DNA of 64,000 nt from Candidatus Staskawiczbacteria bacterium RIFCSPHIGHO2_02_FULL_42_22. GTDB lineage: Bacteria; Patescibacteriota; Minisyncoccia; Minisyncoccales; Staskawiczbacteraceae. This document shows, in pieces, positions 4,651-62,722 of this stretch; position 1 is the first letter of the stretch; the number at the start of each line of letters is the position of its first letter. The notes beneath the pieces are model-generated. The model saw only the letters and a program-made list of their open reading frames with translations. It did not search any database and was not told the origin of the DNA. The position numbers and the translations under genes were made by a program. The stretch spans positions 124-64,123 of the forward strand of contig MHOT01000012.1 of NCBI GenBank assembly GCA_001820175.1, read 5' to 3'.

Positions 4651-4653
4651 ATT

Positions 4654-8342: not shown

Positions 8343-8532
8343 CCGCGGCCCTATGGACATCACATCCAGAAACCGCACTCCAAGTCTTGCCGGATTTGCC
8401 AATCTTGGGCAGTTTTCACAAAAAATTTGTTCGGCGTAGCTACGGCTAGGCCTTACAAATTTTTTGCTCCAAGCCGCCCAATATTGCGAAACCGTCGGCA
8501 ACTTTAGTGCGGTTTCTGGATGTGATGTCCAT
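8343..8532. repeat. family-B MITE-like element (27-bp TIR atggacatcacatccagaaaccgcact), copy 1
   Basis: Perfect terminal inverted repeats. The internal sequence is the reverse complement of copy 32318..32497. Flanked by TA on both sides. Confidence 0.7.
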
Positions 8533-8540
8533 AACAACCC

Positions 8541-13525: not shown

Positions 13526-14596
13526 GGTATAAAGGTAGGTAACTTGTTGCTAATTTTTGAAGTAGATATACCACTTAAAGAAATCCTTTCGCCTGCCCTT
13601 TAACAATCCGCGATGTTGTCGGTAAATAATTTTTAATCTTGAAAAATATCCCTCGATCTTGTTCGTGGTTGAAGGAATATTTTTATCTTTTAAATAATGG
13701 AACATGCTCGGCAGAGCGTTTATCAATAAATTTCTGGTTGCTTTAAGATCGCTGAAAACTTTATCCTTTGAAGACAGGAGGTTCACCGATTTTCCGTATT
13801 TCCTTTCCCATTTTTGAAAAGTATTTAAGAATATTTTTTTACCTCTTTCATTTTTAATTTTTGTAACAGATAGCAATATATCTCTTAATTTCTTGCTGGC
13901 CTCCAGCTTTGGATTTCTTCTTAACCATGATAACCCCTGCCGTTGAATGTGTGCCAAACATCTTTGTATGATAATATCTGGCCAGACATCTTTAATGGCC
14001 CTCATTACGCTTGTATTGCCATCTACCGTGATAGCCATGGGCATAATGCCGCAGCTCTTTGACTCTTCAAAAATTGATCTTGCATATTCGTAATTTTCTC
14101 TGATACAATATTTATGATTTACGATTTTACCATTCGAATTGTCTATTAGCACCATTAGACAATTTTCATGTTTGAAATATGTCCCATCAAAAAGTAAATA
14201 TTTTATTTGATGGTAATTTAGAGTTTTTTTATCCGGCGCTTTGTTCATCCAAAAAGATAATATTTGTTTTATCTTCCAAATTCCACGACGGCTAATACTG
14301 ACTAATTGCCTTGCCGAATAACCCTCAACAATCCACAGCTCAAACCATTTTCTTTCGTTAAATTCCTTGTTCTTGCGATTATGAAAAGTGTAGGTGTGCT
14401 TACAAATTTTACATCTATACCTCTGGTAACCGCATGAAGTGCGACCAAATAATTTAACATTCAAAGAACCACACTTTAGACAACTTTTTTTTCATAATAT
14501 TGAACTGATTTGATATTATTCCAGATTTTAATTGTAATTTACTCTCAAATTAGCACGAAATCCGCATTTTTAGCAACAAGTTACCTACCTTTATAC
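13526..14596 (-). mobile_element. IS1595-family-like insertion sequence with 27-bp perfect TIRs and 8-bp target duplication
   Basis: TIR gtataaaggtaggtaacttgttgctaa at 13527-13553, with its reverse complement at 14570-14596. The direct repeat tcattgcg occurs at 13518-13525 and 14597-14604. There is a single transposase ORF. Confidence 0.7.
13550..14464 (-). CDS. transposase (N-terminal zinc ribbon plus DDE domain; IS1595-like)
   Basis: C..C...C..C near the N-terminus (CGYQRYRCKICKH). DDE-region motifs LFDGTYF, ITVDGNTSVMRAIKDVWPD and TNKIEGYFSRLK. Length 304 aa. Confidence 0.7.
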   Translation of the reverse strand: MNVKLFGRTSCGYQRYRCKICKHTYTFHNRKNKEFNERKWFELWIVEGYSARQLVSISRRGIWKIKQILSFWMNKAPDKKTLNYHQIKYLLFDGTYFKHENCLMVLIDNSNGKIVNHKYCIRENYEYARSIFEESKSCGIMPMAITVDGNTSVMRAIKDVWPDIIIQRCLAHIQRQGLSWLRRNPKLEASKKLRDILLSVTKIKNERGKKIFLNTFQKWERKYGKSVNLLSSKDKVFSDLKATRNLLINALPSMFHYLKDKNIPSTTNKIEGYFSRLKIIYRQHRGLLKGRRKDFFKWYIYFKN

Positions 14597-14744: not shown

Positions 14745-15245
14745 TTATTTGGGACTTATCACAATCCGCCGCTCCGCCCCCTCACCCTGGCTTTCAACTA
14801 TTACCTCTTTATGTGACTCTAATTCAGTATGCACGATTCTCCTTTCATATGAAGACATTGTGGGCAGGGTTATGGGTTTTCCTTGCGCCAGGGCCTCGGA
14901 CACCGAATCATTGGCTATTTTTTTTATGTATTCAATTTTATTTTTTTTGTAGTCGTTAATATCTAAATATACATAAAAAAATTTCCCCAATTTTTTGGCC
15001 AGCATAATTCGCAGCAGGTAATTGAGGTCAAATAGCGTTTGGCCATTTTGGCCAATCAGTATTTGCGGCTCATCCAGCCGCACCTCTATGGTAACACTAT
15101 CAACCACTTCTTTTTGATCGGCATTATCTTCTGGGGCCTGGCCGGCCTTATGCTCAATATTAATGTCTTGAACTGGTAGCGTCAATTTTTGGAAAAATTC
15201 TGACACCGTTTCGCGTATATTTTTTATGTCTTGATCGTCTATCAT
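14745..15245 (-). CDS. khpB: RNA-binding protein Jag/KhpB (KH + R3H domains)
   Basis: C-terminal R3H motif ITLPTMSSYERRIVHTEL. Conserved position downstream of yidC. Confidence 0.7.
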   Translation of the reverse strand: MIDDQDIKNIRETVSEFFQKLTLPVQDINIEHKAGQAPEDNADQKEVVDSVTIEVRLDEPQILIGQNGQTLFDLNYLLRIMLAKKLGKFFYVYLDINDYKKNKIEYIKKIANDSVSEALAQGKPITLPTMSSYERRIVHTELESHKEVIVESQGEGAERRIVISPK

Positions 15246-15253
15246 AATTAATA

Positions 15254-15410
15254 GACCTGTTGCGTATTAAGGATTTACTGCAAATTGCATATTTCGGCCA
15301 TAAATTTGCTATAATTTTTCGGCGGGCCCTCTAGGCAAGCCGAAAAATTCTATCAAATTTCTGGCTCAAAATCTTCAATTTTCGTAACAATCCTTAATAC
15401 GCAACAGGTC
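15254..15410. repeat. family-C MITE-like element (conserved core ttttcggcgggccctctaggcaagccgaaaaattctatcaaattt, self-complementary termini), copy 1
   Basis: Termini are gacctgttgcgtattaaggatt and aatccttaatacgcaacaggtc. TA on both flanks. Confidence 0.65.
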
Positions 15411-15451
15411 TAATTCTTTAAATGTAACCTCTTGCGCCTCTCCCATATATA

Positions 15452-15550
15452 CTCGTCGTCATTGCGAGCGAGCGGCCGCAGCCGCGAGCGCGGCAATCTC
15501 CTTTTTTTTACGGGGATTGCTTCGGGCCTGCGGGTCCTCGCAATGACGAG
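15452..15550. repeat. GC-rich palindromic element overlapping the 3' end of yidC
   Basis: cgtcgtcattgcgagcgagcggccgcagccgcgagcgcggcaatctcc...ggggattgcttcgggcctgcgggtcctcgcaatgacgag. The yidC stop codon (15508) lies inside the element. Confidence 0.65.
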
Positions 15551-16287
15551 ATAGGGGGAATTACTTTTATATTTTTTGATCTTTTGAGAATAAACCATTG
15601 CTGCGCCATGGAAAATAATCCGCTTACAATCCAATATAGTCCCAGCGCCGATGGTAATTTTATAAGAATAATCACGGTAATAATAGGAAAAAGATATACC
15701 ATTTGTTTTTGCATCATGGATGCAATATCAGGGCCACTTTTTGCCACCCCCTTAATTGTCTTGGGAAGCAGCATTTTTGTTTGAAAAAATTGTACGGCTC
15801 CCGCCAACACTGCAAATATCATATTAGGGTCGCCTAGGTTAATAAGCCCCAGAAACATTGTGTTAATCTGCACGGGGTTTACCACAAATTGATATAAATG
15901 AGAAAGCTCTTCTGGTTTTAATCCATTCCAAAATACCCGATACAGGGCGATAAGAATAGGGAGTTGTATCAAGGCCAAAAAAAGGCCTGAAAACGGGTTT
16001 ATCTTTTCCCTGCGGTATAATTCCAGGGTCTCTTTGGCTTGCTTTTCCTTATCGTCTTTATATTTTTTTTGCAGTTCCCGCAACTGCGGCTGCAATTTTT
16101 GCATAGCCGCCTGAGAGGCAACGGCTTTCACTGAAAGCGGATAGATAATAATCCGAATAATCACTGTAAGAATAATAATAGCGATGCCAAAATCGTGGCC
16201 AGGCACATAATTATAAATAATCACCAGGAAATTAAAGAGGGGAAAGTATAAAAAAAAATCGAAAAAATTTACAATAAATTGGAACAT
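15508..16287 (-). CDS. yidC: membrane protein insertase YidC (short form); last ~18 codons encoded by a GC-rich repeat
   Basis: Multi-TM Oxa1/YidC pattern with conserved loop PQLRELQKKYKDDKEKQAKETLELYRREKINPFSG. The C-terminus ...SLRGPAGPKQSP is read from the repeat. Confidence 0.8.
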   Translation of the reverse strand: MFQFIVNFFDFFLYFPLFNFLVIIYNYVPGHDFGIAIIILTVIIRIIIYPLSVKAVASQAAMQKLQPQLRELQKKYKDDKEKQAKETLELYRREKINPFSGLFLALIQLPILIALYRVFWNGLKPEELSHLYQFVVNPVQINTMFLGLINLGDPNMIFAVLAGAVQFFQTKMLLPKTIKGVAKSGPDIASMMQKQMVYLFPIITVIILIKLPSALGLYWIVSGLFSMAQQWFILKRSKNIKVIPPISSLRGPAGPKQSP

Positions 16288-16440
16288 TATTACTTAATTT
16301 CTAATTATTCTAATTATTCTAATTAACCTAATCAAATATCAATAACTAAAATACTTAAATCCTAAAACGGTTTAGAGATTAGGTATTCACTTATTGGATA
16401 TTGATTAGAATAATTAGGTTAATTAGAAATTAGAATAATT
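16288..16440. repeat. AT-rich inverted-repeat spacer (empty cassette-like) between yidC and rnpA
   Basis: ttctaattattctaattattctaattaacctaatcaaat is mirrored by attgattagaataattaggttaattagaaattagaataatt. Same sequence style as the arms of cassette 1. Confidence 0.55.
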
Positions 16441-16779
16441 TTATATTATTCCCATCTTTCTAAAAGAATCACTGACGGTTTTCTGTATCTCTAAAAACTC
16501 TCTTTTCTCGATTCCAGCCAAACTAATAACAATAACATCAAATGATCCGTTTAATTCCCCCAATAAACCCGCAACTGCGTCTCGTAATCTCCTTTTTACC
16601 CTATTGCGTACTACGGCTTTTGGTGAAACCTTCTTACTGACCACAAAACCAAAGCGACTGGAAGGTAAATTATTTTTCACAGCTTTTACCAGTAAAAAAT
16701 CCTGCTTGACGCCCTTTCCCCCAGTAAAAACCTTATCGAAATCCTTTTTTTTGGTAAGTCGGTTTATTTTTGGCAACAC
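16441..16779 (-). CDS. rnpA: ribonuclease P protein component
   Basis: 112-aa basic protein with the RNR motif (RNRVKRRLRDA). Sits between rpmH and yidC. Confidence 0.75.
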   Translation of the reverse strand: MLPKINRLTKKKDFDKVFTGGKGVKQDFLLVKAVKNNLPSSRFGFVVSKKVSPKAVVRNRVKRRLRDAVAGLLGELNGSFDVIVISLAGIEKREFLEIQKTVSDSFRKMGII

Positions 16780-16899
16780 TTCTGCAAATTATCAATTATC
16801 AATTTTCAATGACCAATTTTCAATAACGGCGTCAATTGATAATTAGATAATTTAGAAATTGATTGATACTTGATAATTGATAATTGATAATTTCCACAT
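16780..16899. repeat. AT-rich inverted-repeat spacer between rnpA and rpmH
   Basis: tatcaattatcaattttcaatgaccaattttcaat is mirrored by attgatacttgataattgataattgataatt. Same sequence style as the arms of cassette 3. Confidence 0.55.
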
Positions 16900-17034
16900 T
16901 TACACCGAAAGCTTCTTCCTTCCCTTAGCTCTTCTTCGCGCCAAAACCTGTTTGCCTTTCTTGGTTTGCTTGCGCACTAAAAAACCGTGGGTTTTTTTTC
17001 TTTTTTTCTTCTTGGGGTTATACGTAAAACTCAT
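16900..17034 (-). CDS. rpmH: 50S ribosomal protein L34
   Basis: Hand translation of the minus strand gives [44 protein letters not shown]. Missed by the ORF track (below the length cutoff). Confidence 0.85.
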
Positions 17035-17296
17035 AATTGTATAATTCTCTTAATTAATATAATATGGTTACTATAGTATAAAAAAATCCCCGAGTCAATT
17101 GTGTAATTGCGCGTTTAATTTATTGTGCGTCTACCTTAAAATGTATCACACATATTATCCCCATCTTATCAACAACCTAGGTTTATTCTATTTTAATTTG
17201 ACTCGCGGGTTCAGTATTTGATATTTATATTATATAGTTTCTAAAAAAATAACTGCGTAATTTTGCGTTAATTTCCGCGTTTTTGCGCGACCATGT
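17035..17296. promoter_or_regulatory. dnaA upstream region with candidate DnaA boxes (oriC candidate)
   Basis: TTATCCCCA and TTATCAACA (17171-17193) each differ from TTATCCACA by one base. Divergent rpmH/dnaA arrangement. Confidence 0.45.
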
Positions 17297-18655
17297 ATGG
17301 ACCACAACGAACTCTGGCAACAAGTGCTGGCACAAATGCAATTTCATATTTCCAAGGCAAATTTTGCCACGTGGTTTCAAAATACCGAAATTATTTTAAG
17401 AGAAGATGAAAAGATGGTCATTTCCGTACCCAATGCTTTTTCTAAAGAATGGCTGAAGAACAAATATTATAAACTTATTCTCAAAACTATCCATACTACA
17501 GATAATTCTATAAAAGAATTGGAGTTTGTTATTAAACCTCAGTTATTAAAAAAAATTGACCAGAAAGAGGATACTAAAAAACCAGAAATAGAAACCGGGC
17601 AATTAAAATTTGAAGAGTTTAAGGTAAACAAAGAAACTAATTTAAATCCGCGCTACACCTTTGAAAATTTTGTCGTCGGATCATTTAATGAGCTGGCGTA
17701 TTCGGCCAGCTTGGCGATTTCAGAAAATGTCGGGACTGTGTACAACCCCTTATTTATTTATGGCGGCGTCGGTTTGGGAAAAACCCATTTAATACAGGCC
17801 ATTGGAAATAAAATACATGACAGCCCCAAAAAAAAGAAGGTAAAGTATATTTCCTGTGAAAAATTTGTTTCGAGCATTGTGTCGGGAATACGAAACCATA
17901 ATATTGATATTTTTAAAGCAAGTTTGTCTTTAATTGACGTATTAATTATTGACGACATCCAGTTTTTGGCAGGAAAAGATAAAACCCAGGAAGAATTCTT
18001 CCACACTTTTAATTCTCTATACGAAAAAAATAAACAAATCATTCTTTCTTCTGATCGGCCGCCCAACGCCATTCCTGAACTAGAAGAACGCCTGCGATCG
18101 CGTTTTGAAGGCGGAATGATCACCGACATTAGTCTACCGGATTATGAAACACGGCTTGCTATTTTAAAAACAAAGCTTCAAGAAAAAAATCTAAAACTAC
18201 CCGAAGATGTATTAGAATACGTCGCTTCTAACGTAAAAAAGAATATCAGGGAATTAGAAGGGGCCCTTAATAGTTTATTAATATATTATAAAACCAACAC
18301 CTCAATTCCTAACCTTGAAACAACTAAAAGATTATTGAAAAATTTTGTATTTTCTCCCTTTAATGTGGCAAATTACAAAAAAATCATTGAAATTGTTTCT
18401 AAATTTTATAATTTAGATGAAAAAACGATTTTTAACCCGACCCGCCGCAAAGAAATTGTTAGGCCCCGGCAAATTGCCATGTTTTTATTAAGAGAAGAAT
18501 TAAAATACTCCTTCCCGGCCATTGCCCGTAAATTTGGCGGAAAAGACCACACCACCGTGATTTACGCCCATAAAAAAATACTCCAAGAATGCCAACAAAA
18601 TAATAAACTCACTGAAGAATTAAATATGATAAAACAAAAAGTATATAGTGGTTAA
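17297..18655 (+). CDS. dnaA: chromosomal replication initiator DnaA
   Basis: AAA+ Walker A GGVGLGKTHLIQAIGN, Walker B LIIDDIQFL, sensor motifs, C-terminal DNA-binding domain. Confidence 0.9.
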   Translation: MDHNELWQQVLAQMQFHISKANFATWFQNTEIILREDEKMVISVPNAFSKEWLKNKYYKLILKTIHTTDNSIKELEFVIKPQLLKKIDQKEDTKKPEIETGQLKFEEFKVNKETNLNPRYTFENFVVGSFNELAYSASLAISENVGTVYNPLFIYGGVGLGKTHLIQAIGNKIHDSPKKKKVKYISCEKFVSSIVSGIRNHNIDIFKASLSLIDVLIIDDIQFLAGKDKTQEEFFHTFNSLYEKNKQIILSSDRPPNAIPELEERLRSRFEGGMITDISLPDYETRLAILKTKLQEKNLKLPEDVLEYVASNVKKNIRELEGALNSLLIYYKTNTSIPNLETTKRLLKNFVFSPFNVANYKKIIEIVSKFYNLDEKTIFNPTRRKEIVRPRQIAMFLLREELKYSFPAIARKFGGKDHTTVIYAHKKILQECQQNNKLTEELNMIKQKVYSG

Positions 18656-18689
18656 GCAACCCCTCACGCCCCACATAACCCCTCACGCC

Positions 18690-18975
18690 CCCACCGTCAT
18701 TGCGAGGCACACTGAAGCAATCCCCGTACAAAACGACGAGATTGCCACGTCGCTTGCGAGCTCCTTGCAATGAAGACACTGGGTCACTGATCCTATTTTA
18801 CACTTTTTGATTAGGGGGTGTGAGGGGTTACCGCCTCACCACCATCACTACCGTCATTGCGAGGAATCCGCAGATTCCGTGGCAATCCCTCAATAATACG
18901 ACTAGATTGTCCCGATGGTGGAGCCATCGAGGATCCTCGATAGAATCGGGACTGCGGGCCCTCGTAATAACAGTA
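18690..18975. repeat. cluster of GC-rich palindromic elements (3 units)
   Basis: ccgtcattgcgaggcacactgaagcaatcc..., cgtcattgcgaggaatccgcagattccgtggcaatcc... and attgtcccgatggtggagccatcgaggatcctcgat...atcgggact. Confidence 0.65.
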
Positions 18976-19235
18976 CGGGGGATGATGTGGTTAAAATTAA
19001 AATAAGATAGTGGAATACCTGTGTAAAAGTACGGTAGTAAACTGAACACCATTGATGTATAAAAAATACTATAAAAATTCACCCACCTTATCACCAAATG
19101 ATTTCCAATTATTTATCAACAAGTTATTATAAAAAAAGATAAAGATAAATTACCCTATAAAATTATTAAAAATACATTAAAATTACCTTCACCAACAACA
19201 ATAATAATATTTTATTAACTATTAATTACGACATT
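18976..19235. promoter_or_regulatory. AT-rich dnaA-dnaN intergenic region with DnaA-box-like 9-mers (oriC/DUE candidate)
   Basis: TTATCACCA and TTATCAACA at ~19087-19120, followed by ~120 bp of >85% AT immediately upstream of dnaN. Confidence 0.4.
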
Positions 19236-20363
19236 ATGAAAATAGAAGTGTTGAAAGAAAATTTAAAATCAGGCCTTATTATTAGTGAAAGAATTGTGGG
19301 TAAAAACATATCCCTCCCTATTTTACATAATGTGTTAATAACCACAGAGAATAATTTTTTAAGTTTAATTTCTACTGATTTAGAAGTAACTATTAAATTA
19401 TGGATGCTGGTGAAAATTATTAACAAAGGAAGTGTGGTGGTGCCGGCAAAATTCCTTTCTAGTTTTATTACCTCTTTACCTAATGAGAAAATAACTATGG
19501 AGCAAAGGGATCAGTCCTTGTATATTGAGTGTGGAAATGTGAAGACAAAAATCCAAGGACATAACTTAGAGGATTTTCCTATTATCCCTGAGTTTAAAAA
19601 TACTGAAACACTGGAGGTTGATAGCCAGGCATTATATGGGGCAATTTCACAGGTGGTTGATATTGCTTCCCAGAACCAAGGCCGACCGGAAATTTCTGGT
19701 GTCTATTTTTCTTTTCTGAAAAATTCCATTAAAGTAGTGGCCACTGATAGTTTTCGTTTAGCAGAAAAAAATATTCACCTATCAGAGCCCATTAAAAAAG
19801 AGCATAGTTTTATTTTGCCCCAAAAGTCGGCCCGAGAAATTATGAATATTTTAGAGGGAAGGGGAGGGGCGGTGATCATATATTTTTCACCAAATCAAGT
19901 ACTTTTTGAAGTATTAATGAAAGAGGTTGGGCATCCGGAAGTCCAAGTTACTTCCCGTCTTATTGATGGGGAGTACCCTAATTACCAAGATATCATACCC
20001 AGTAAATTTAAGACCCATATTACGGTATCAAAAGACCAATTTTTAAACCAAATAAAAACCGCGTCATTATTTTCAGGTAAGGTTAATGAAGTGAGAATTT
20101 CCCTTAGTACCGAAAAACAAGACCTTGAAATATCTTCAAAGAGCCAAGATGTTGGCGAACACACCTCATTATTAAAAGCAAAAATAGAAGGGGAGGCGAT
20201 ACAGATATCTTTTAATTATAAATTTTTAATGGATGCTCTTTTGCACATGAAAAGTTCAGAGGTAATTTTAGAAATAAGCAAAGAAGATGGACCCTGTCTT
20301 CTGCGACCCCTGGGAGACGATAGTTATATTTGTGTAGTGATGCCGATTAAATCGCTTCAATAG
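19236..20363 (+). CDS. dnaN: DNA polymerase III beta sliding clamp
   Basis: 375 aa. Three-domain clamp pattern with the dnaA-dnaN gene order. Confidence 0.85.
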   Translation: MKIEVLKENLKSGLIISERIVGKNISLPILHNVLITTENNFLSLISTDLEVTIKLWMLVKIINKGSVVVPAKFLSSFITSLPNEKITMEQRDQSLYIECGNVKTKIQGHNLEDFPIIPEFKNTETLEVDSQALYGAISQVVDIASQNQGRPEISGVYFSFLKNSIKVVATDSFRLAEKNIHLSEPIKKEHSFILPQKSAREIMNILEGRGGAVIIYFSPNQVLFEVLMKEVGHPEVQVTSRLIDGEYPNYQDIIPSKFKTHITVSKDQFLNQIKTASLFSGKVNEVRISLSTEKQDLEISSKSQDVGEHTSLLKAKIEGEAIQISFNYKFLMDALLHMKSSEVILEISKEDGPCLLRPLGDDSYICVVMPIKSLQ

Positions 20364-31572: not shown

Positions 31573-31609
31573 AATAATTCAAGCTATATCATTTTAATAA
31601 ATAAATCAA

Positions 31610-32254
31610 GTGGAAAAAATAATTACTAAAACCTTTCGTCAAACCCAGGAAGTCGGCCAAAATTTCGCGGATGAAATTCTATCTTCTGATTCTCAAAAAA
31701 CGGCGGTGATTTTGGCGTTGAGGGGTGATTTGGGTGCCGGAAAAACCACGTTTTTGCAGGGCTTTGCAAAAGGCCTGGGAATTATTGAAGTGGTGAATAG
31801 TCCGACGTTTGTTATTATGAAGAAATTCAAAATCGCTGAATTGCGCGGAAATTTACCCTTCGGCCTCGCTCAGGGCGGGCGCGGAAGGGACGCGGAAACG
31901 AAACCGCGCGGCGGCCCCGCGGGGCCGCCCGCCCGCCCGTCATTGCGAGCCGTGCCCAGTGGGGCGCGGCGTGGTCCCGATGAATTTATCAAGATAAATT
32001 CATACGAGGATCCTCGATGGCAAAGCCATCGGGACAATCCAGCGTTTAAATTTTTCTACCACTTCGATTTATATCGCCTCGAAAGCGAAAAGGACTTGGA
32101 GTTTTTGAATTTCCAAGAAATAATTTCAAACCCAAAAAACATCATTGCCATCGAATGGCCGGAAAAAATCGGCAAATTATTGCCTAAAAATAGCATTTCA
32201 ATAATATTCAAACATTTAGAAGAAAATAAAAGAGAGTTGATAATTCATAGATAA
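31610..32254 (+). CDS. tsaE: tRNA threonylcarbamoyladenosine biosynthesis protein TsaE, carrying an in-frame repeat-element insertion
   Basis: Walker A ILALRGDLGAGKTTF; SPTFVIMKKF ... HFDLYRL motifs. About 55 extra codons lie between them (GLAQGGRGRDAETKPRGGPAGPPARPS...). Confidence 0.75.
   Translation: MEKIITKTFRQTQEVGQNFADEILSSDSQKTAVILALRGDLGAGKTTFLQGFAKGLGIIEVVNSPTFVIMKKFKIAELRGNLPFGLAQGGRGRDAETKPRGGPAGPPARPSLRAVPSGARRGPDEFIKINSYEDPRWQSHRDNPAFKFFYHFDLYRLESEKDLEFLNFQEIISNPKNIIAIEWPEKIGKLLPKNSISIIFKHLEENKRELIIHR
31855..32042. repeat. GC-rich palindromic element inserted in frame within tsaE
   Basis: gcccgcccgtcattgcgagccgtgcccagtggggcgcgg ... ggtcccgatg...gaggatcctcgatggcaaagccatcgggacaatcc. 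Same sub-motifs as copies at 18895 and 38755. Confidence 0.65.
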
Positions 32255-32317
32255 TGTTTTATCTATAAGTGTAGTACATTTCATGGGCATTGTTGGAGGG
32301 AGTCAATCATGAGCACT

Positions 32318-32497
32318 ATGGACATCACATCCAGAAACCGCACTTAAGTTGCCGACGGTTTGGCAATCTTGGGCGGCTTGGAGCAAAAAATTTGTGAGGC
32401 CTAGCCGTAGCTACGCCGAACAAATTTTTTGTGAAAACTGCCCAAGATTGGCAAACCCGTCAAGACTTGGAGTGCGGTTTCTGGATGTGATGTCCAT
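32318..32497. repeat. family-B MITE-like element, copy 2 (opposite internal orientation to copy 1)
   Basis: atggacatcacatccagaaaccgcact...agtgcggtttctggatgtgatgtccat; TA flanks. Confidence 0.7.
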
Positions 32498-32698
32498 ATG
32501 TATGACAAGGGTATGGGAAATTTTTTAGGAAATGCAAGAATGCAGAAAGGAGATTCCGTAGAAGATGTGAGAGTAAGATCTGGTTATTCTAGTAGGATAA
32601 CCATAAGTGGGATTGAAGCAGGAAAATATGGAATTTCCGCAAAAAATATAAAAAGAATTGTTGCTGCGTACCGACTAACGCCCGCTGAATTGCAGTAA
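32498..32698 (+). CDS. small XRE-type helix-turn-helix protein (tentative)
   Basis: ITISGIEAGKYGISAKNIKRIVAAYRLTPAEL resembles an HTH_XRE helix-turn-helix. The start codon lies at the edge of the family-B repeat. Confidence 0.3.
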   Translation: MYDKGMGNFLGNARMQKGDSVEDVRVRSGYSSRITISGIEAGKYGISAKNIKRIVAAYRLTPAELQ

Positions 32699-33036
32699 TT
32701 CAGCAATTTAGTAGAAATATACCGCCAAAAGCAAACCAAACACATAAGTGAGTATGGTAAAAAATAATTCTATCCATGGAATCGTATATTCTTCGGGAAT
32801 GGAGAAAGTTGCCCCTGGAGTCCCAACAAAAATTGTTTAAAATTATGAATGCCACGGAACATTTTTAGTTCCCGGGAAAATATTGGCTGTTGCTTGTGTA
32901 ACAGCTTTTTTATTTACGAGAATGGCAGAGCGATAATACGGAAAATATAATATCGATAACATTCGAATACTTTAAGGAAAATAAAAGAGGAGTAAAAAAT
33001 TTGACTTTTTAATTAATAGAATGTTATCAATAGAGT

Positions 33037-33249
33037 ATGGCTAATAAAAATATCATTCTATCAACATCAACGATAAACAAGCAAAATGGCGTGGTAGTTT
33101 TGTCTTTGAAAAAATGGCAAAAAATGGAAAAAGAATTTTTGGAATTAAAAGATGCGATGGAGGCAGTTATTGAGGGGGAGATAGCTTTGCGTGAAGGTAA
33201 AACGAGGTCATTTAAGGAGTTTTTAGCTGAACTACATGCCAAGAATTAA
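33037..33249 (+). CDS. type II antitoxin (Phd/YefM- or RelB-like, tentative)
   Basis: 70 aa. Overlaps the downstream RelE/ParE-like gene by 14 nt. Confidence 0.4.
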   Translation: MANKNIILSTSTINKQNGVVVLSLKKWQKMEKEFLELKDAMEAVIEGEIALREGKTRSFKEFLAELHAKN

Positions 33250-33508
33250 TAAATCTTCCACTACTCCGCGTTTCGAAAAAAGCTTTAGGAATCTTTCTGG
33301 AGAAATTCGCAAATCAGCCGAGAAAAAAATAGTGCTTTTTGAAAGTGAATTTTTACATCCAAGTTTAAAAACACACAAATTGAAAGGCCCGTTGTCAAAT
33401 TTTTGGGCTTTTTCTATCACAAAAAGTTATAGAGTTTTGTTTAGATTTTTAAAGAGTAATGAAGTTATTTACTATGACATTGATACCCATGACATATATA
33501 AAAAATAG
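33236..33508 (+). CDS. RelE/ParE-family toxin
   Basis: 90 aa. ...FESEFLHPSLKTHKLKGPLSNFWAFSITKSYRVLFRF...VIYYDIDTHD pattern of RelE/ParE fold toxins. Confidence 0.5.
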   Translation: MPRINKSSTTPRFEKSFRNLSGEIRKSAEKKIVLFESEFLHPSLKTHKLKGPLSNFWAFSITKSYRVLFRFLKSNEVIYYDIDTHDIYKK

Positions 33509-33642
33509 ATGATTACCCAAAAATACCGCTTTAATAATTTAGAAGACAACAAAAGAGAAATCACGATAGAATACCGACTACCAAATAAGGTGGTGGTGGG
33601 GGCGATATTAAGACAGTAATTAAAAAAGGTCGATTTTTTGTA

Positions 33643-33870
33643 ATGTTTGAAATAAAAAATAAAAATATGACAGAGTCAAATTTTATACCAGAAGATAAAT
33701 ATCCATTAGTCGGAGAGAATATTAATGATGAAAATAAAAAATTAAGAGACGACGAAAATTTTAAAAAAATTTTCCATGAAATTGATTGGGAAAGTGTAGG
33801 GGAAGATGTGTTAAGAGAGTTTGCAGAAGTATTAAAAAAAGAAGAAGAAAGAAGGGGAAAAAAGTTTTAA
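33643..33870 (+). CDS. hypothetical small charged protein
   Basis: 75-aa ORF. Confidence 0.25.
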   Translation: MFEIKNKNMTESNFIPEDKYPLVGENINDENKKLRDDENFKKIFHEIDWESVGEDVLREFAEVLKKEEERRGKKF

Positions 33871-33959
33871 AAAATAATTAGAAAAATACAAGATTCTTAA
33901 TTTCTTGTATTTTTTTTGCAAAATTTTTAAAAGTTTTGTAAAAATGTTAAAATACTTAC

Positions 33960-38424: not shown

Positions 38425-38860
38425 ACCCACTACCGTCATTGCGAGGAGCCCCGAACCACAGTGAGGGGCGACGAAGCAATCTAATAACGAATGGAGATTG
38501 CTTCGCTGTGGCTCGCAATGACGAGAGAAAAACCATTATTCGCCAAGCTCTAATTAAAACCCCTCACACCCCCGATGTCATTTACGACGCGCACGATCGG
38601 GAATCCAGGGGAAAATCTTCTGGATCCCGGGTCAAAAGTCCGGGATGACAACGAGAGGCGTGAGGGGCTATTTTTGGTAATTTTGAGTATGGCAAATAAT
38701 CCCCTCAATCAGTCATTGCGAGCCCACAGGCGTGGCAATCTCGCTTCATTGAATCTAACTGGATTGTCCCGATGGTGGAACCATCGAGGATCCTCGATCA
38801 CATCGGGACTTCGGGTTTGCGAACCCTCGCAATGACGATGCGCGTGGGGGATGCCTCGGT
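38425..38860. repeat. cluster of GC-rich palindromic elements (4 units, including an intact copy of the unit split at 22925)
   Basis: ccgtcattgcgaggagccccgaaccacagtgaggggcgacgaagcaatct...; gatgtcatttacgacgcgcacgatcgggaatccagggg...cccgggatgacaacgagaggcg; cagtcattgcgagcccacaggcgtggcaatctc...attgtcccgatggtggaaccatcgaggatcctcgat. Confidence 0.7.
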
Positions 38861-45917: not shown

Positions 45918-48017
45918 TTACTCATTTTTCAATTTTTCTAATAAATCGCGGATTTTCGCTGCCCGTTCAAAATCCATATTTTTGGCGGCGATTTTCATTT
46001 CTTTTTCCAATAACTTTTTATCCTGCACGGCGTCAAATTCTGAAATAACATCTTCTTTTTTGGAAAACCCCCAATCGCGTACATCTTTGATGATGGCCGT
46101 GGGAGTAATACGATGTTTTTTATTGTATGCTTCCTGAATTTTTCTTCTGCGGTTTATTTCATCAATGGCCGATTTCATGGAACCAGTAATAGAATCGCCA
46201 TACAAAATAACCCTTCCATACTGGTGGCGCGCCGCCCGGCCCATGGTTTGAATTAAGGTGGTTTTATTCCGCAAAAACCCTTCTTTGTCGGCATCTAAAA
46301 TGGCAACCAATGCAACTTCGGGCAAGTCCAACCCTTCTCGCAATAGGTTAATTCCTACGAGAACGTCAAATTTTCCCTGTCGGAAATTTTTTAACACCTC
46401 GGGCCGCTCCATCGTTTTTATTTCTGAATGCAGGTATTGGGCTTTGACGTTTCTTTCTGCCAGGTAATCAGAAATTTCTTCAGCCAGGCGTTTGGTCAAA
46501 GTAATTACCAGCACACGGTGTTTTTTGGCCACCTCTTTTTTAATTTCGGCCAGCAGGTCTTTAATTTGGTTTTCGGTTTTTTTCACTTCTATGGAAGGTT
46601 CGAGTAACCCGGTTGGCCTGATAATTTGTTCAATCACCTCTTTGCCGGATTTTTGAAGTTCGTAATCAGCTGGTGTGGCCGACACATAAATTGACTGTTT
46701 TTCCCGTTCGGTAAATTCCTGGAACCTTAGGGGCCGATTATCAATGGCCGAAGGCAGGCGAAAACCAAAATCGATCAAGGTTTCTTTGCGTATTTTATCT
46801 CCAATGGCCATGGCTTTAATTTGAGGAAGCGAAATGTGGGACTCGTCGATGAAAATTAAAAATCCGTCATTTGTGTTGTCTGAGATTGCCACGTCGCCGC
46901 GCGCCCGCGGGCGCGCGGCTCCTGAGTCGGGAACTCCCGTTACGCGGGAAGTTCTCGCGACTTTGCGCAATGACGAAGAACGGGTGGCATAATTAAAATA
47001 ATCAACCAAAGAAAATGGCGGGGTTCCTGCTTTTCTGAATTCCAATTGGCTGGAATAATTTTCAATGCCCTGGCACCAACCGGTTTCTTTGAGCATTTCC
47101 AGGTCGTAGTTAGTTTTTTGCTCCAAGCGTTGGTATTCCACTAATTTATTTTGTTTTTTTAATTCTTTGAGCCGTTCTTGTAATTCCAGTTTTATATTTT
47201 CAAGGGCAATGGGAAGGGTGTCTTGGGGCGCGGCCCAGAAGGTGGCGGGGTATAGTGTGAAGCTTGAATCTTGTATCTTGAAGCTTGTATTCGGGCCACT
47301 TTGTGAAACGGAAATTTTCTGGATGGTATTACCATTAAATTCTATCCTTAATATTTTTTCTCCGGTCACCAAATATATTTCAACTATTTCTCCGCGCACC
47401 CGAAAGGTGGCCGGTTTAAAATCAATATCATTTCGTTTGTATTGCAGTAAAATAAGGTGGGAAATAAAATCCTTGCGGGTTATTTTTTGATTTGGTTTTA
47501 TATTCCAACTAACTTTTTGGTAGTTTTCCGGCGACCCAATGTTATAAATACAACTTACGGATGCCACCACAATAACATCTTTTCGCTGCAGTACATCTTG
47601 GGCGGCGGAATGTCGCAGGCGGTCAATTTCCTGGTTTATCTTGGCATCTTTTTCTATATAGGTATCGGTCTGGGGAATATATGCTTCTGGTTGGTAGTAA
47701 TCGTAATACGATACAAAATAGTGCACGCCATTGTTGGGAAAAAATTCCTTCATTTCTTGGTAAAGTTGCGCGGCCAGGGTTTTGTTACAAGCTACTATAA
47801 GAGTAGGTTTTTGGTATTTGGAAATGACTTGGGCCATGGTAAAAGTCTTGCCGGATCCGGTAACGCCCAAAAGCACCTGGTGTTTTTTGCCTTTTTTTAA
47901 ATTTTCGGTCAGTTTTTTAATGGCCTGGGGCTGATCGCCCGTGGGGGTGTATTTTGATATTATTTTGAATTCCATGGTAGTATATGTGTAGCGTGAAGCG
48001 CATAGCGCAGAACGCAA
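45918..48017 (-). CDS. uvrB: excinuclease ABC subunit B, carrying an in-frame repeat-element insertion
   Basis: Walker A GVTGSGKTFTMAQVI, helicase motifs, C-terminal UVR domain. There are ~36 extra codons (TRSSSLRKVARTSRVTGVPDSGAARPRARGDVAISD) between PPFSLVDYF and the FIDESH motif. Confidence 0.85.
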   Translation of the reverse strand: MRSALCASRYTYTTMEFKIISKYTPTGDQPQAIKKLTENLKKGKKHQVLLGVTGSGKTFTMAQVISKYQKPTLIVACNKTLAAQLYQEMKEFFPNNGVHYFVSYYDYYQPEAYIPQTDTYIEKDAKINQEIDRLRHSAAQDVLQRKDVIVVASVSCIYNIGSPENYQKVSWNIKPNQKITRKDFISHLILLQYKRNDIDFKPATFRVRGEIVEIYLVTGEKILRIEFNGNTIQKISVSQSGPNTSFKIQDSSFTLYPATFWAAPQDTLPIALENIKLELQERLKELKKQNKLVEYQRLEQKTNYDLEMLKETGWCQGIENYSSQLEFRKAGTPPFSLVDYFNYATRSSSLRKVARTSRVTGVPDSGAARPRARGDVAISDNTNDGFLIFIDESHISLPQIKAMAIGDKIRKETLIDFGFRLPSAIDNRPLRFQEFTEREKQSIYVSATPADYELQKSGKEVIEQIIRPTGLLEPSIEVKKTENQIKDLLAEIKKEVAKKHRVLVITLTKRLAEEISDYLAERNVKAQYLHSEIKTMERPEVLKNFRQGKFDVLVGINLLREGLDLPEVALVAILDADKEGFLRNKTTLIQTMGRAARHQYGRVILYGDSITGSMKSAIDEINRRRKIQEAYNKKHRITPTAIIKDVRDWGFSKKEDVISEFDAVQDKKLLEKEMKIAAKNMDFERAAKIRDLLEKLKNE
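46882..46976. repeat. GC-rich palindromic element inserted in frame within uvrB
   Basis: gagattgccacgtcgccgcgcgcccgcgggcgcgcggctcctgagtcgggaactcccgttacgcgggaagttctcgcgactttgcgcaatgacga. Confidence 0.65.
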
Positions 48018-62218: not shown

Positions 62219-62722
62219 TTATTTTAACGCTCGTTGAATGTCGCGCTGGACGTCTCGTTTTTTAATTTTCTCTTTTTTATCAAATTTCTTCTTACCGCGA
62301 GCCAGAGCGAATTCGAGTTTTATCCTACCATTTTGCTCGTAAACTTTCAAGGGGATGAGCGAAAAACCGCGCTCGTTCACTTTACCCATAAGGTAATTAA
62401 TTTCTTTTTTATTTAATAGCAACTTGCGTGGTTGTTCAGGATTATAATCGGCTGGCGCATTTTTGGGCTGATAGGGAGGAATTTTAGCGCCGATGAGCAG
62501 TGGTTCGGCGGCGGCCCGAGGGTGGGAATTTCCGCCTGCGAGCGGAAAATTCTCGCGTCCAGCCGGGCCGCCGCCGCGAATCACCACATACGCCCCCGCC
62601 AAATGCATGTGCCCCGTTTTGATGCTTTTTACCTCTTGGCCAATCAAAACCAGCCCGGCTTCATATTTTTCCAGGATTTCGTAGTCAAACGTGGCCTTCT
62701 TATTTTCAGAATAAATTTCCAT
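62219..62722 (-). CDS. smpB: SsrA-binding protein SmpB, carrying an in-frame GC-rich palindromic insertion
   Basis: ATFDYEILEKYEAGLVLIGQEVKSIK...KLLLNKKEINYLMGKVNERGFSLIPLKVY. About 21 extra residues (GPAGRENFPLAGGNSHPRAAAEP) lie between VVIRGG and LLIGAKI. Confidence 0.85.
   Translation of the reverse strand: MEIYSENKKATFDYEILEKYEAGLVLIGQEVKSIKTGHMHLAGAYVVIRGGGPAGRENFPLAGGNSHPRAAAEPLLIGAKIPPYQPKNAPADYNPEQPRKLLLNKKEINYLMGKVNERGFSLIPLKVYEQNGRIKLEFALARGKKKFDKKEKIKKRDVQRDIQRALK
62507..62576. repeat. 70-bp GC-rich perfect-ended palindrome inside smpB (in frame)
   Basis: gcggcggcccgagggtgggaatttccgcctgcgagcggaaaattctcgcgtccagccgggccgccgc. Confidence 0.65.

What the first reader, a model, noticed from the sequence alone, without database searches (positions are those of the whole stretch)
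31855..32042. Repeat element inserted in frame inside tsaE
TsaE has its Walker A motif and the SPTF...HxDLYRL motifs. The spacing between SPTFVIMKKF and FYHFDLYRL is ~70 residues, where this family usually has about 15. The extra ~55 codons are GC-rich repeat sequence (gcccgcccgtcattgcgagccgtgcc...catcgggacaatcc) and the reading frame is preserved. This mirrors Rickettsia palindromic elements, which integrate in frame into protein-coding genes and are tolerated as surface loops.
Basis: partly seen in the sequence, partly recalled or inferred. Interest (0 to 1): 0.7.

Follow-up and report, generated by a model that had tools for sequence, protein, structure and literature searches.

The report
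In-frame palindromic repeat insert in tsaE
An essential tRNA-modification gene (tsaE) of a groundwater candidate-phylum bacterium carries a 198-base, GC-rich, hairpin-forming repeat insertion that stays in frame and is probably tolerated as a floppy surface loop; this kind of event is already known from Rickettsia and other bacteria, but here it is in a new lineage and involves a repeat family that has not been described.

Summary
tsaE (31610-32254, +) is an intact 214-aa ORF. Its beta-hairpin loop between the SPTF and HxDxYR motifs is 73 residues long, against 7 in 59 of the 120 nearest orthologues. The extra 66 codons (~31844-32041) are 66-84% GC in a 39% GC window, and they are read in the only one of six frames that is open.

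The insert is composite:
- One unit of a dispersed hairpin family (CGTC-ATTGCGAG...GCAATC): 29 units in the window, 28 core matches against 0.8 expected.
- A second palindromic module nested in that unit's tail, with two more nested copies in the window and at least 119 metagenome loci.
- About 95 nt of unique GC-rich hairpins.

Shorter versions of the same unit sit at the same codon, orientation and frame in other Parcubacteria tsaE genes. In this window uvrB, smpB and the yidC 3' end also carry in-frame GC-rich inserts; those in uvrB and yidC are units of the same family.

AlphaFold models the insert as a disordered loop at the hairpin tip, which is not among the published TsaB/TsaD contact regions.

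The family resembles the published CGTC-tagged REPs but does not show up as any of the four listed families. This is a known kind of event in a new lineage and family, so interest is moderate.

The parts
31610..32254 (+). tsaE ORF (214 aa, GTG start), intact, with the insert inside it
   Evidence: ORF list. Pfam TsaE E=4.6e-31 in two stretches. Exact match to NCBI OGZ69342.1, Candidatus Staskawiczbacteria. The AF2 core matches 1HTW with TM 0.80 normalised to the target.
31844..32041 (+). Composite in-frame insertion: 198 nt, 66 codons, residues ~79-144. The left boundary is uncertain by ~9 nt.
   Evidence: Boundaries come from codon-level comparison with the empty sites in L004 and L006 and the filled sites in L001, L002 and L005. 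GC is 66% against 39% for the window. Only 1 of 6 frames is open. AF2 pLDDT is 46-58 with no secondary structure, between strands 70-74 and 148-153.
31834..31843 (+). Left arm of the terminal inverted repeat, CGCTGAATTG. It pairs with 32035-32044 and contains a reversed tail-like GAATTGC at 31838-31844.
   Evidence: The arms are 9/10 complementary. They form the closing helix of the predicted fold of 31832-32047: DNA -66.1 kcal/mol (z -4.6), RNA -119.6 kcal/mol (z -5.7).
31844..31937 (+). Left GC-rich multi-hairpin segment. Its origin is unclear; it may be a degenerate inverted unit that has lost its head.
   Evidence: - It contains these hairpins: CCCTTC/GAAGGG (31856-31889), CGCGG-aaacgaaa-CCGCG (31891-31908), a perfect 20-nt palindrome at 31910-31929, and GGGCGGGCG/CGCCCGCCC (31873-31881 / 31926-31934).
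- It has no other copy in the window.
- Positions 31857-31874 resemble the interior of the unit at 56411-56458 read in reverse.
31938..31974 (+). 5' part of the CGTC unit: head CGTCATTGCGAGC (31938-31950) and interior hairpin CCGTGCCC-AGTG-GGGCGCGG (31950-31969).
   Evidence: It is one of 29 units of the family in the window. Its interior is homologous to the unit at the same tsaE codon in L005.
31975..32034 (+). Nested second palindromic module, TCCCGATG...CATCGGGA. It has an AT-rich arm (31980-32003), the palindrome CGAGGATCCTCG (32005-32016) and the hairpin ATGGCAAAGCCAT (32017-32029).
   Evidence: Two more copies in the window sit at the same place inside CGTC units (18902-18939, 38759-38796). 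The core pattern is found in at least 119 metagenome stretches. Of the 121 copies, 116 have no CGTC head within 110 nt upstream and 5 are nested just before CAATC.
32034..32041 (+). 3' tail of the CGTC unit (ACAATC + CA) and the right junction with native tsaE
   Evidence: The right junction GCAATCY|ARYGTTYAAA is shared with L001 and L002, and in diverged form with L005.
31799..31810 (+). SPTF motif, native, upstream of the insert
   Evidence: S64, P65 and F67 are invariant columns and T66 is nearly invariant (at least 90%) in alignment A2. The equivalent peptide contacts the TsaD active site in the T. maritima complex (PMC6009658).
32060..32077 (+). HFDLYR motif, native, downstream of the insert
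   Evidence: H151, Y155 and R156 are invariant columns and D153 is nearly invariant (at least 90%) in A2. Coordinates.

Best explanation
A small palindromic DNA unit, which encodes no enzyme of its own for copying or moving itself, became inserted in the codons for the tip of the TsaE beta-hairpin. That hairpin runs from SPTF, down strand 70-74, back up strand 148-153, to HxDxYR. The unit belongs to the family CGTC-ATTGCGAG-[variable GC hairpin]-GCAATC.

The insertion then grew. A second palindromic module now sits inside the unit's tail, and about 95 nt of further GC-rich hairpins lie on its 5' side. The whole 198 nt forms a self-closed multi-hairpin block.

The block is a multiple of three in length and free of stops in the gene's frame. 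It is therefore transcribed and translated with tsaE, as a 66-residue loop rich in Gly, Pro, Arg and Ala and probably disordered. The loop projects from the end of the hairpin opposite the ATP site, so the gene stays functional.

Selection is the filter. tsaE is needed, so only in-frame, stop-free insertions at a permissive surface position survive. The family's units are open in 5 of 6 frames, which makes survival easy.

**Shown here:** the anatomy, the repeat-family membership of two of the three modules, the in-frame state, absence from most orthologues, homologous shorter inserts at the same codon in relatives, the predicted loop location, and fixation in the sampled population.

**Inferred:** translation through the insert, retained TsaE activity, and the mobilisation mechanism. 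My best guess for mobilisation is copying or transposition of single-stranded DNA hairpins by an enzyme supplied in trans, as proposed for REP elements and their RAYT transposases. No such enzyme is present in this window.
For: **Gene and insert**
- Intact ORF with a split Pfam hit.
- The loop is 73 aa against a modal 7 aa in 120 orthologues.
- The window protein has the consensus residue at all 18 invariant columns.
- Only 1 of 6 frames across the insert is open, and it is the frame used.
- No terminator-like site on the + strand inside the insert.

**Repeat family**
- 28 core matches against 0.79 expected.
- 29 units share the same head and tail; 26 carry the CGTC tag; there are 11 inverted pairs.
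- Interior stems show compensatory changes, for example GTCCT/AGGAC against GCCCC/GGGGC.
- The nested module recurs at the same position in two other units in the window, and in composites from other metagenomes.

**Relatives**
- L002 carries a minimal 28-nt unit, L005 a 43-nt unit with a homologous interior, and L001 a unit plus a GC palindrome. All three are at the same codon, orientation and S-L-R frame as the window.
- L004 and L006 are empty at this site.

**A genome-wide habit**
- In-frame inserts also occur in uvrB (42 aa, CGTC unit) and smpB (about 21 aa). The last 12 codons of yidC come from a unit.

**Structure**
- The core has pLDDT above 90 and the insert 46-58, as a coil between strands 70-74 and 148-153. 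The fold matches 1HTW, 5NP9 and 6N9A.
- The published TsaE contacts with TsaB and TsaD are the SPT(F/Y)T peptide, Tyr82, helix alpha3 and the beta5-beta6 loop. The hairpin tip is not among them (PMC6009658).

**Population**
- The sequence is identical on independent assemblies.
Against: - There are no expression or proteomic data, so translation through the insert and TsaE activity are not demonstrated.
- The left ~95 nt is not a repeat copy in the 64 kb available, so part of the insert may have arisen in place rather than by insertion.
- No target-site duplication could be defined.
- No transposase of the Y1/HUH type was found among the ORFs screened. The only transposase-like gene is an IS256-like one that has itself inserted into a unit.
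- The published CGTC REPs also lack a known mobilising enzyme (PMC3733652). Mobility of the unit is therefore inferred from its copy number and distribution; it has not been observed.
- A very stable RNA structure (-119.6 kcal/mol) inside a coding region could impair expression.
Confidence: 0.75

Rival explanations
1. The long loop is a native, lineage-specific low-complexity expansion of a naturally variable TsaE loop. It would have arisen by slippage or hairpin-driven duplication in place, not by insertion of a mobile repeat.
For: - This loop varies in length in 55 of 120 orthologues, and many inserts there are unrelated AT-rich sequences such as KSQINSKFKIQNSKF.
- The left ~95 nt of the insert has no other copy in the window.
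- The peptide search with the 70-aa insert found nothing.
Against: - The 3' 104 nt consists of a canonical unit of a family with 29 copies in the window, plus a module found in at least 119 metagenome stretches.
- The shortest filled site (L002) is exactly one 28-nt unit in an otherwise standard loop.
- 59 of 120 orthologues have the compact 7-aa loop.
Confidence: 0.1
2. The insertion has inactivated tsaE. The open frame is chance or only recent, and the gene is a pseudogene in a reduced genome.
For: - GC-rich sequence seldom contains stop codons.
- The family's units are open in 5 of 6 frames (sequence inspection of the head and tail), so an open frame is not very improbable.
- There are no expression data.
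Against: - Only 1 of 6 frames across this particular insert is open, and it is the correct one.
- Both halves of the protein keep every invariant residue and 60-72% identity to orthologues.
- Shorter homologous inserts are retained in frame in several diverged relatives, which implies long persistence under selection.
- uvrB and smpB show the same in-frame pattern.
Confidence: 0.07
3. The insert has been co-opted. It would act either as a structured RNA element controlling tsaE expression or stability, or as a basic disordered loop that contributes to tRNA or partner binding. It would then be kept for function rather than merely tolerated.
For: - The same unit sits at the same codon, orientation and frame in TsaE lineages that are not sisters in the tree.
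- The fold is strong and self-closed.
- The loop is rich in Arg.
- The S-L-R frame recurs in tsaE site 1, tsaE site 2, uvrB and the yidC tail.
Against: - About half of the orthologues, including the closest ones by identity, lack any insert.
- Insert sequences and lengths differ widely.
- The same family is mostly intergenic.
- In other genomes units are found within long ORFs (not verified as genes) in several frames.
- TsaE acts as an electrostatic competitor of tRNA through an acidic patch (PMC6009658), so a basic loop has no obvious role.
Confidence: 0.06
4. The segment is removed after transcription or translation, as a small intron, an intein or a translational bypass element, so the mature protein is a normal TsaE.
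For: The segment is a discrete, self-folding block closed by a terminal helix.
Against: - No Rfam intron or ribozyme match at gathering score or at E<=1.
- At 198 nt it is below the usual size of group I and II introns.
- 66 aa is too short for an intein, and the junctions lack the Cys/Ser/Thr and His-Asn signatures (intein rules from general knowledge).
- The length is a multiple of three and stop-free in the gene's frame. That would not be required if the segment were removed. The same holds for uvrB and smpB.
Confidence: 0.02

Closest known systems
CGTC-tagged REP superfamily (Di Nocera, De Gregorio & Rocco 2013, BMC Genomics 14:522; PMC3733652)
   Same: - It has an unpaired CGTC tag at one end, a stem that begins with A-T, a short C-rich tail, and mostly inverted dimers made of unlike partners.
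- It is mostly intergenic with a minority of in-frame intragenic copies. These include DNA-repair genes such as uvrB, and clusters encoding 43-82 aa.
- No dedicated transposase lies next to the repeats.
   Different: - The stem sequence is ATTGCGAG rather than the ATTCCCGC or ATGCCCGG types implied by the peptides listed for CGTC-1 to CGTC-4, such as VIPAKAGI and DGRVKPGHD. None of the peptide or DNA strings of the window family occurs in the paper's supplements.
- Only 5 bp of the stem are perfect.
- The interior is 9-57 nt of variable GC-rich hairpin instead of a 4-5 nt loop.
- The host is a candidate-phylum (Parcubacteria) genome, a group not covered by that survey.
Rickettsia palindromic elements (RPE-1 to RPE-8; in-frame insertions first described by Ogata and colleagues in 2000, cited from memory). 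RPE-4 and RPE-6 are classed as CGTC REPs in PMC3733652.
   Same: Palindromic repeats that insert in frame into housekeeping genes and are carried as extra peptide segments. The host genome is AT-rich and reduced. Targets include tRNA-modification and repair genes.
   Different: The lineage and sequence family differ. Similarity to RPE consensus sequences could not be tested here. The tsaE insert is a nested composite of several unrelated modules rather than one element.
REPINs and RAYT transposases (GTAG-tagged REP doublets)
   Same: Short hairpin units arranged as inverted doublets and present in many copies. A single-stranded-DNA hairpin is the likely substrate (background in PMC3733652).
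   Different: The tag is CGTC, not GTAG. No RAYT or Y1 transposase gene was found among the ORFs screened in the window.
Intragenic MITEs of other bacteria, for example the Coxiella burnetii MITEs (PMC5896051) and cases reviewed in PMC10969869
   Same: Small non-autonomous elements with inverted termini. According to the title and abstract of PMC5896051, they bear on protein evolution.
   Different: No target-site duplication and no parent insertion sequence can be identified here. The inverted termini of the tsaE block are only 10 nt and appear to be the tails of hairpin units.
GC clusters of yeast mitochondrial DNA (from memory, not tested)
   Same: GC-rich palindromic clusters spreading in a very AT-rich genome, sometimes inside coding sequences and kept in frame.
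   Different: These are organellar and eukaryotic, with no sequence relationship to the element here. The comparison is an analogy only.

Membership tests
TsaE / YjeE (PF02367) | Pfam model match above the curated cut-off | tested here: met
   107.9 bits against a cut-off of 26.6, E=4.6e-31, split into two stretches by the insert.
TsaE / YjeE (PF02367) | Walker A, SPT(F/Y) and HxDxYR motifs, and the P-loop fold | tested here: met
   The window protein has the consensus residue at all invariant columns of a 120-sequence alignment. The AF2 core matches 1HTW, 1FL9, 5NP9 and 6N9A with Foldseek probability 1.00.
CGTC-tagged REP superfamily (PMC3733652) | Unpaired CGTC tag (TGTC or CCTC variants allowed) at one end of the unit | tested here: met
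   26 of 29 window units begin with CGTC, including the tsaE unit. The others begin TGTC, AGTC or ACTC; the ACTC case is explained by an insertion sequence that has landed in the head.
CGTC-tagged REP superfamily (PMC3733652) | Stem directly after the tag, with complementary A-T at its first two positions | tested here: met
   ATTGC...GCAAT is invariant in the aligned units.
CGTC-tagged REP superfamily (PMC3733652) | Stem of 8-9 bp and loop of 4-5 nt | tested here: not met
   Only 5 perfect pairs are present, followed by mismatches. The interior is 9-57 nt, and 84 nt in the tsaE unit because of the nested module.
CGTC-tagged REP superfamily (PMC3733652) | Short unpaired C-rich tail (consensus about CCA) | tested here: inconclusive
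   After GCAAT the units continue C[T/C]C. The tsaE and 38762 units continue CCAG. The published consensus figure could not be read.
CGTC-tagged REP superfamily (PMC3733652) | Units mostly organised as inverted dimers, often of unlike partners | tested here: met
   There are 11 inverted pairs with tags outward, typically a short unit with a long one. The same arrangement appears in Bradyrhizobium, Micavibrio and Rickettsiales loci.
CGTC-tagged REP superfamily (PMC3733652) | Identity with one of the four catalogued families, CGTC-1 to CGTC-4 | tested here: not met
   The peptides encoded by the listed families that I read (VIPAKAGI, DGRVKPGHD, VMPGLDPGI) imply other stems. The strings SLRA, SLRG, RHCE, VIAS and ATTGCGAG are absent from all supplements. 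Part 2 of the table was not read in full, but it was covered by the string search.
Rickettsia palindromic elements (RPE) | Sequence similarity to an RPE consensus | not tested
The only link is the published assignment of RPE-4 and RPE-6 to CGTC REPs.
Rickettsia palindromic elements (RPE) | In-frame insertion in conserved genes, carried as an extra peptide segment | tested here: met
   tsaE, uvrB, smpB and the yidC tail. This is a functional resemblance only.
REPIN / RAYT system | GTAG tag and an associated RAYT (Y1 transposase) gene | tested here: not met
   The tag is CGTC. No Y1_Tnp hit in the Pfam screens or in the precomputed annotations of the genes checked. These cover most but not all ORFs of the 64 kb; the rest of the genome was not seen.
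MITE (IS-derived miniature element) | Terminal inverted repeats plus a target-site duplication | tested here: inconclusive
   The insert has 10-nt inverted termini, 9/10 complementary. No direct duplication flanks it in the window. L001 has CCAGCG on both sides.
Group I/II intron or other known structured RNA | Match to an Rfam covariance model | tested here: not met
   In the window only tmRNA reaches a gathering score. No credible hit at E<=1 in 31600-32700.
Intein | Size of at least ~130 aa, with N-terminal Cys/Ser and C-terminal His-Asn followed by Cys/Ser/Thr | tested here: not met
   The insert is 66 aa. It begins around ..AELRGN and ends ..HRDNPA|F. The criteria are from general knowledge.

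The most novel reading that the evidence does not exclude
The tip of the TsaE hairpin, and other beta-hairpin tips such as those in SmpB and UvrB, may be specific landing sites rather than merely permissive ones. An uncatalogued hairpin family found across many phyla (CGTC-ATTGCGAG) would then integrate at the same codon, in the same orientation and in the same S-L-R reading frame, in TsaE lineages that are not sister groups. That would imply either a targeted integration mechanism acting on coding DNA, or long-term retention because the encoded loop or the RNA hairpin has acquired a role. The second module, nested just before the CAATC tail of several units, would be an element that targets another repeat.
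Probability: 0.2. Interest if true: 0.55.

Novelty: new member of a known kind. Interest (0 to 1): 0.35.

Why it matters
- **Annotation.** In-frame colonisation of essential genes by palindromic repeats has been documented mainly in Rickettsia and a few proteobacteria. Finding it in a reduced candidate-phylum genome, three or four times within 64 kb and recurrently in TsaE across Parcubacteria, suggests it is a general source of protein-length variation in these lineages. It is also a likely cause of 'hypothetical protein' labels: this TsaE is deposited in NCBI as a hypothetical protein.
- **An undescribed repeat family.** The unit (CGTCATTGCGAG...GCAATC) turns up in many phyla, yet I found its sequence in no paper. 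No mobilising enzyme is known even for the published CGTC repeats. Genomes like this one, small and dense with units, could be good places to look for that enzyme.
- **Practical use.** The result shows where TsaE tolerates large insertions.

Tried and rejected
- **Rfam.** A search of the whole window at gathering score and of 31600-32700 at E<=1 found only tmRNA plus chance-level hits, for example a plant miRNA precursor on the neighbouring long hairpin.
- **Literature string searches.** Searches for the unit and its translations (TCATTGCGAG, ATTGCGAGCGAAGC, SLRAKRSN, CFASLAMT and others) returned only primer coincidences or nothing.
- **Protein search with the 70-aa insert peptide.** It returned no candidate, so it gave no information on other genes carrying the composite.
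- **BLAST of the left 95 nt and of the smpB insert against the window.** It found only self-complementary matches and short GC-rich words. Their origin stays open.
- **Search for a mobilising enzyme.** Precomputed Pfam annotation within 10 kb either side of tsaE, plus Pfam scans of 38 further ORFs, gave no Y1/HUH transposase. The only transposase-like gene is a weak IS256-family hit that is itself inserted into a unit.
- **Neighbour-joining tree of 120 TsaE sequences.** This was meant to decide between one ancient insertion and several independent ones. The tree is star-like with long tips and no support values, so it only suggests that the carriers are not one clade.
- **Frame census of units inside long ORFs in loci from other phyla.** Several frames are used, but those ORFs were not verified as genes, so it is weak evidence.
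- **Terminator scan.** No + strand terminator-like site lies within the insert.
- **Considered and rejected:** assembly chimera (identical on independent assemblies), intein, and intron.
Full report
**1. The observation**

The + strand ORF 31610..32254 encodes a 214-aa protein. It matches Pfam TsaE (PF02367) at E=4.6e-31, but in two separate stretches. The exact protein is deposited as OGZ69342.1, 'hypothetical protein A3D44_02690', from a Candidatus Staskawiczbacteria metagenome-assembled genome, a member of the Parcubacteria in the candidate phyla radiation.

The other 119 listed homologues are 135-181 aa long. I aligned the window protein with those 119 (120 sequences) and measured the segment between the invariant I75 and F149:
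- 7 residues in 59 proteins
- 2-3 residues in 5 proteins
- 8-31 residues in 55 proteins
- 73 residues only in the window protein

Codon-level comparison with empty and filled sites in relatives puts the inserted DNA at about 31844-32041, with the left edge uncertain by about 9 nt. This stretch is 66% GC overall and reaches 75-84% in sub-windows, against 39% for the window. Only one of the six frames across it lacks a stop codon, and that is the tsaE frame. The identical gene, with 0 differences, lies on independently assembled contigs from several samples, so it is not an assembly artefact.

**2. Anatomy of the insert**

The insert has three parts.

*(a) A hairpin-family unit, 31938-31974 plus 32034-32041.*
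- The family has the form CGTC-ATTGCGAG[G/C]-variable GC-rich interior-GCAATC-[T/C]C.
- The 11-nt core occurs 28 times in the window with up to 1 mismatch, against 0.79 expected; no shuffle reached this number.
- I found 29 units. 26 carry the CGTC tag, and most lie in 11 inverted pairs with the tags outward, in intergenic DNA.
- The outer stem ATTGC/GCAAT is invariant.
- Interior stems differ between copies by compensatory changes.

*(b) A second palindromic module, 31975-32034, nested between the unit's interior and its CAATC tail.*
- It has the form TCCCGATG-[AT-rich arm]-CGAGGATCCTCG-ATGGCAAAGCCAT-CGGGA.
- Two other units in the window carry the same module at the same relative position.
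- Of the 121 copies, 116 have no CGTC head within 110 nt upstream and 5 are nested just before CAATC.
- The arm that is AT-rich in tsaE varies in length and sequence between copies.
- The module is therefore an independent element. Either it entered the unit, or it spreads together with the unit as a composite.

*(c) A run of GC-rich hairpins, 31844-31937.*
- It includes a perfect 20-nt palindrome.
- It has no other copy in the window.
- Its 5' end (GAATTGC...CCTTCGGCCTCGCTCAGG) resembles the tail and interior of a unit read in reverse. It may be a degenerate inverted partner that has lost its head. This is not established.

The whole block is closed by a 10-nt terminal inverted repeat, CGCTGAATTG / CAATCCAGCG. 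It is predicted to fold much better than shuffled controls: DNA -66.1 kcal/mol (z = -4.6) and RNA -119.6 kcal/mol (z = -5.7).

**3. Relatives**

I fetched tsaE DNA from six other Parcubacteria contigs. The genes flanking tsaE, where annotated, are the same.
- L004 and L006 have the compact loop and are empty at this site.
- L002 has exactly one minimal 28-nt unit at the site (...SSLRAKRSNL...).
- L005 has a 43-nt unit whose interior is homologous to the window unit.
- L001 has a unit preceded by a different GC-rich palindrome.

In L001, L002, L005 and the window, the unit lies at the same codon boundary, in the same orientation and in the same frame (TCA TTG CGA = S-L-R), with the right junction GCAATCY|ARYGTTYAAA (more diverged in L005).

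From protein sequence alone, two further orthologues (P0028, P0108) carry S-L-R inserts at this site. Five (P0014, P0016, P0017, P0045, P0067) carry them at a second loop after EWPEKI, confirmed at the DNA level for L003 and L006.

In a neighbour-joining tree the carriers are scattered, and the window protein is closer in identity to proteins that lack an S-L-R unit at this site. The tree is poorly resolved, however. I cannot decide between one old insertion followed by seamless losses and repeated insertion at the same codon. Either way, the window's insert is an elaborated version of something older than this species.

**4. Is the gene still a gene?**

- The window protein has the consensus residue at all 18 invariant columns of the 120-sequence alignment.
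- AlphaFold2, run with that alignment, predicts the TsaE core with pLDDT above 90. Residues ~76-147 are coil with pLDDT 46-58, between strands 70-74 and 148-153.
- The model matches YjeE/TsaE structures: 1HTW with TM 0.80 normalised to the target, and 6N9A and 6S84 with probability 1.00.
- In the T. maritima TsaBDE structure, TsaE touches its partners through four regions: the SPT(F/Y)T peptide, Tyr82 of the HxDxYR region, helix alpha3 and the beta5-beta6 loop (PMC6009658).
- The insert sits at the far end of the hairpin that links the first two of these regions. It is about eight residues from each and is not among the listed contacts. That it is solvent-exposed in the complex is my inference.
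- The second insertion site seen in other orthologues falls near the beta5-beta6 loop, which does contact TsaB. That site is not occupied in the window.
- No terminator-like site lies on the + strand within the insert.

**5. Same habit elsewhere in the window**

- **uvrB** (45918..48017, -) has a 42-aa insert at 46869-46994, where solved UvrB structures have one residue. It is a CGTC unit read as ..SSLRK...GDVAIS...
- **smpB** (62219..62722, -) has an in-frame GC-rich palindrome of about 21 aa at 62507-62575, with no CGTC head.
- **yidC**: the last 12 codons and the stop codon of the ORF come from a unit, again in the S-L-R frame.

Three or four in-frame events in 64 kb show that the tsaE case is part of a genome-wide pattern.

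**6. Mechanism**

*Shown:* a multi-copy hairpin family, in-frame intragenic copies, nesting of one element inside another, and an IS256-like element that has itself landed in a unit head with an 8-bp duplication, TCATTGCG.

*Inferred:* the units spread as single-stranded DNA hairpins, handled by an enzyme supplied in trans, by analogy with GTAG REPs and RAYT transposases.

I found no Y1/HUH transposase. The Pfam annotation and scans covered most, though not all, ORFs of the window. The published CGTC repeats likewise have none (PMC3733652). The in-frame state is best explained by selection on a needed gene, together with units that are open in 5 of 6 frames.

The recurrent S-L-R frame could reflect shared ancestry, tolerance of a hydrophilic basic peptide, or targeting. 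In loci from other phyla, units inside long ORFs use several frames, but those ORFs were not verified as genes.

**7. Comparison with what is known**

The closest published class is the CGTC-tagged REP superfamily (PMC3733652). Its features, as described there, are:
- a CGTC tag, a stem that starts with A-T, a short tail, and inverted heterodimers
- no dedicated transposase
- in-frame copies in genes such as uvrB, with clusters encoding 43-82 aa
- assignment of Rickettsia RPE-4 and RPE-6 and Neisseria dRS3 to it

The window family meets the tag, AT-start, dimer and no-transposase criteria. It differs in three respects:
- It fails the criterion of an 8-9 bp stem with a 4-5 nt loop.
- It does not appear to be one of the four listed families. 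The peptides I read in their table imply other stems.
- None of this family's DNA or peptide strings occurs in their supplements.

The hosts include Alpha- and Gammaproteobacteria, Bacteroidia, Chloroflexi, Patescibacteria, Saccharibacteria, Melainabacteria, Planctomycetota and Firmicutes. The typical units there are 27-28 nt and 33-34 nt. The family is therefore widespread. I found no paper that quotes its sequence.

In short, the insert works like an RPE. It is best filed as a CGTC-tagged hairpin repeat of an uncatalogued family, not as an RPE.

**8. Verdict**

The phenomenon is of a known kind. What is new:
- the host lineage
- the repeat family
- the nested, three-part build of the insert
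- the recurrence at one TsaE codon across Parcubacteria

Interest is moderate (0.35). The most novel reading still open is site-specific integration or co-option of the insert. I give it about 0.2 probability.

Noticed in passing
window 46869-46994 (- strand, inside uvrB ORF 45918..48017): UvrB carries a 42-aa in-frame insert where solved UvrB structures have one residue. It is a CGTC unit (head 46965-46975 CGTCATTGCGC, tail 46883-46889) read in the same S-S-L-R frame as in tsaE.
   Followed up: partly
window 62507-62575 (- strand, inside smpB ORF 62219..62722, next to the tmRNA gene at 61868-62217): SmpB has an in-frame insert of about 21 aa made of a GC-rich palindrome (GGCGGCGGCCCG...CGGGCCGCCGCC). 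It lies between two regions that each align to solved SmpB structures, where those structures have two residues. It has no CGTC head and no other copy in the window.
   Followed up: partly
window 15508-15548 (- strand, 3' end of yidC ORF 15508..16287): The last 12 codons and the stop codon of the YidC ORF (..PPISSLRGPAGPKQSP*) are supplied by a CGTC unit, again in the S-L-R frame.
   Followed up: partly
window 13529-14596: An IS256-like element. Its 304-aa ORF (13550..14464, -) has a weak Transposase_mut hit. It is bounded by perfect 27-bp inverted repeats, GTATAAAGGTAGGTAACTTGTTGCTAA. It sits inside the head of a CGTC unit, with an apparent 8-bp duplication TCATTGCG.
   Followed up: partly
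window 32317-32498, 8352-8533 (-) and 56497-56678: Three copies (93-97% identical) of a 182-nt long-hairpin repeat with ends of about 28 nt, TATGGACATCACATCCAGAAACCGCAC... One copy lies about 60 nt downstream of the tsaE stop codon. There is no credible Rfam match.
   Followed up: partly
window 32255-33959: About 1.7 kb lies between tsaE and the 5'-3' exonuclease gene. It holds small ORFs, including an HTH_3 protein (32498..32698) and a weak HigB-like toxin (33236..33508). Five of the six related contigs have much shorter spacers here (18-518 nt); L006 has about 0.9 kb with two small ORFs. This may be an inserted toxin-antitoxin-like islet.
   Followed up: no
metagenome loci L130-L209 and the rest of that scan; window 18902-18939, 31975-32034, 38759-38796: The module GTCCCGA-[variable arm]-CGAGGATCCTCG-ATGGnnnnCCAT-CGGGAC is a widespread small palindromic element in AT-rich groundwater metagenome contigs, with at least 119 stretches. 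Most copies (116 of 121) have no CGTC head nearby. It has conserved arms and one arm of variable length, and it is not in Rfam.
   Followed up: partly
genome loci L010-L129: The CGTCATTGCGAG...GCAATC unit occurs in many phyla, including Bradyrhizobium, sphingomonads, Micavibrio, Rickettsiales, Bacteroidia, Chloroflexi, Saccharibacteria, Melainabacteria, Planctomycetota and Firmicutes. It usually appears as a 27-28 nt unit paired with a 33-34 nt unit. Its interior often contains GCGAAGC, which I recall as a very stable DNA mini-hairpin.
   Followed up: partly
TsaE orthologues P0006, P0065, P0045, P0002, P0068, P0116 and others (alignment A2): Many Parcubacteria TsaE proteins carry unrelated AT-rich, repeat-like inserts at the same hairpin tip, such as KSQINSKFKIQNSKF or TTHYSLQTTHY. 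The loop is therefore a general hot spot for insertions, not only for the CGTC family.
   Followed up: no
window 14745-20363: This is the chromosomal origin neighbourhood: jag (R3H), yidC and rnpA on the - strand, then dnaA (17297..18655) and dnaN (19236..20363) on the + strand. CGTC units and a nested-module composite fill the dnaA-dnaN spacer (18695-18960).
   Followed up: no
window 3293-7611: Three genes of the '23S rRNA intervening sequence protein' family (PF05635) are interleaved with type IV secretion-like genes: PrgI, a TraG/VirB4-like ATPase and, further on, a 1546-aa protein with a T4SS pilin domain.
   Followed up: no
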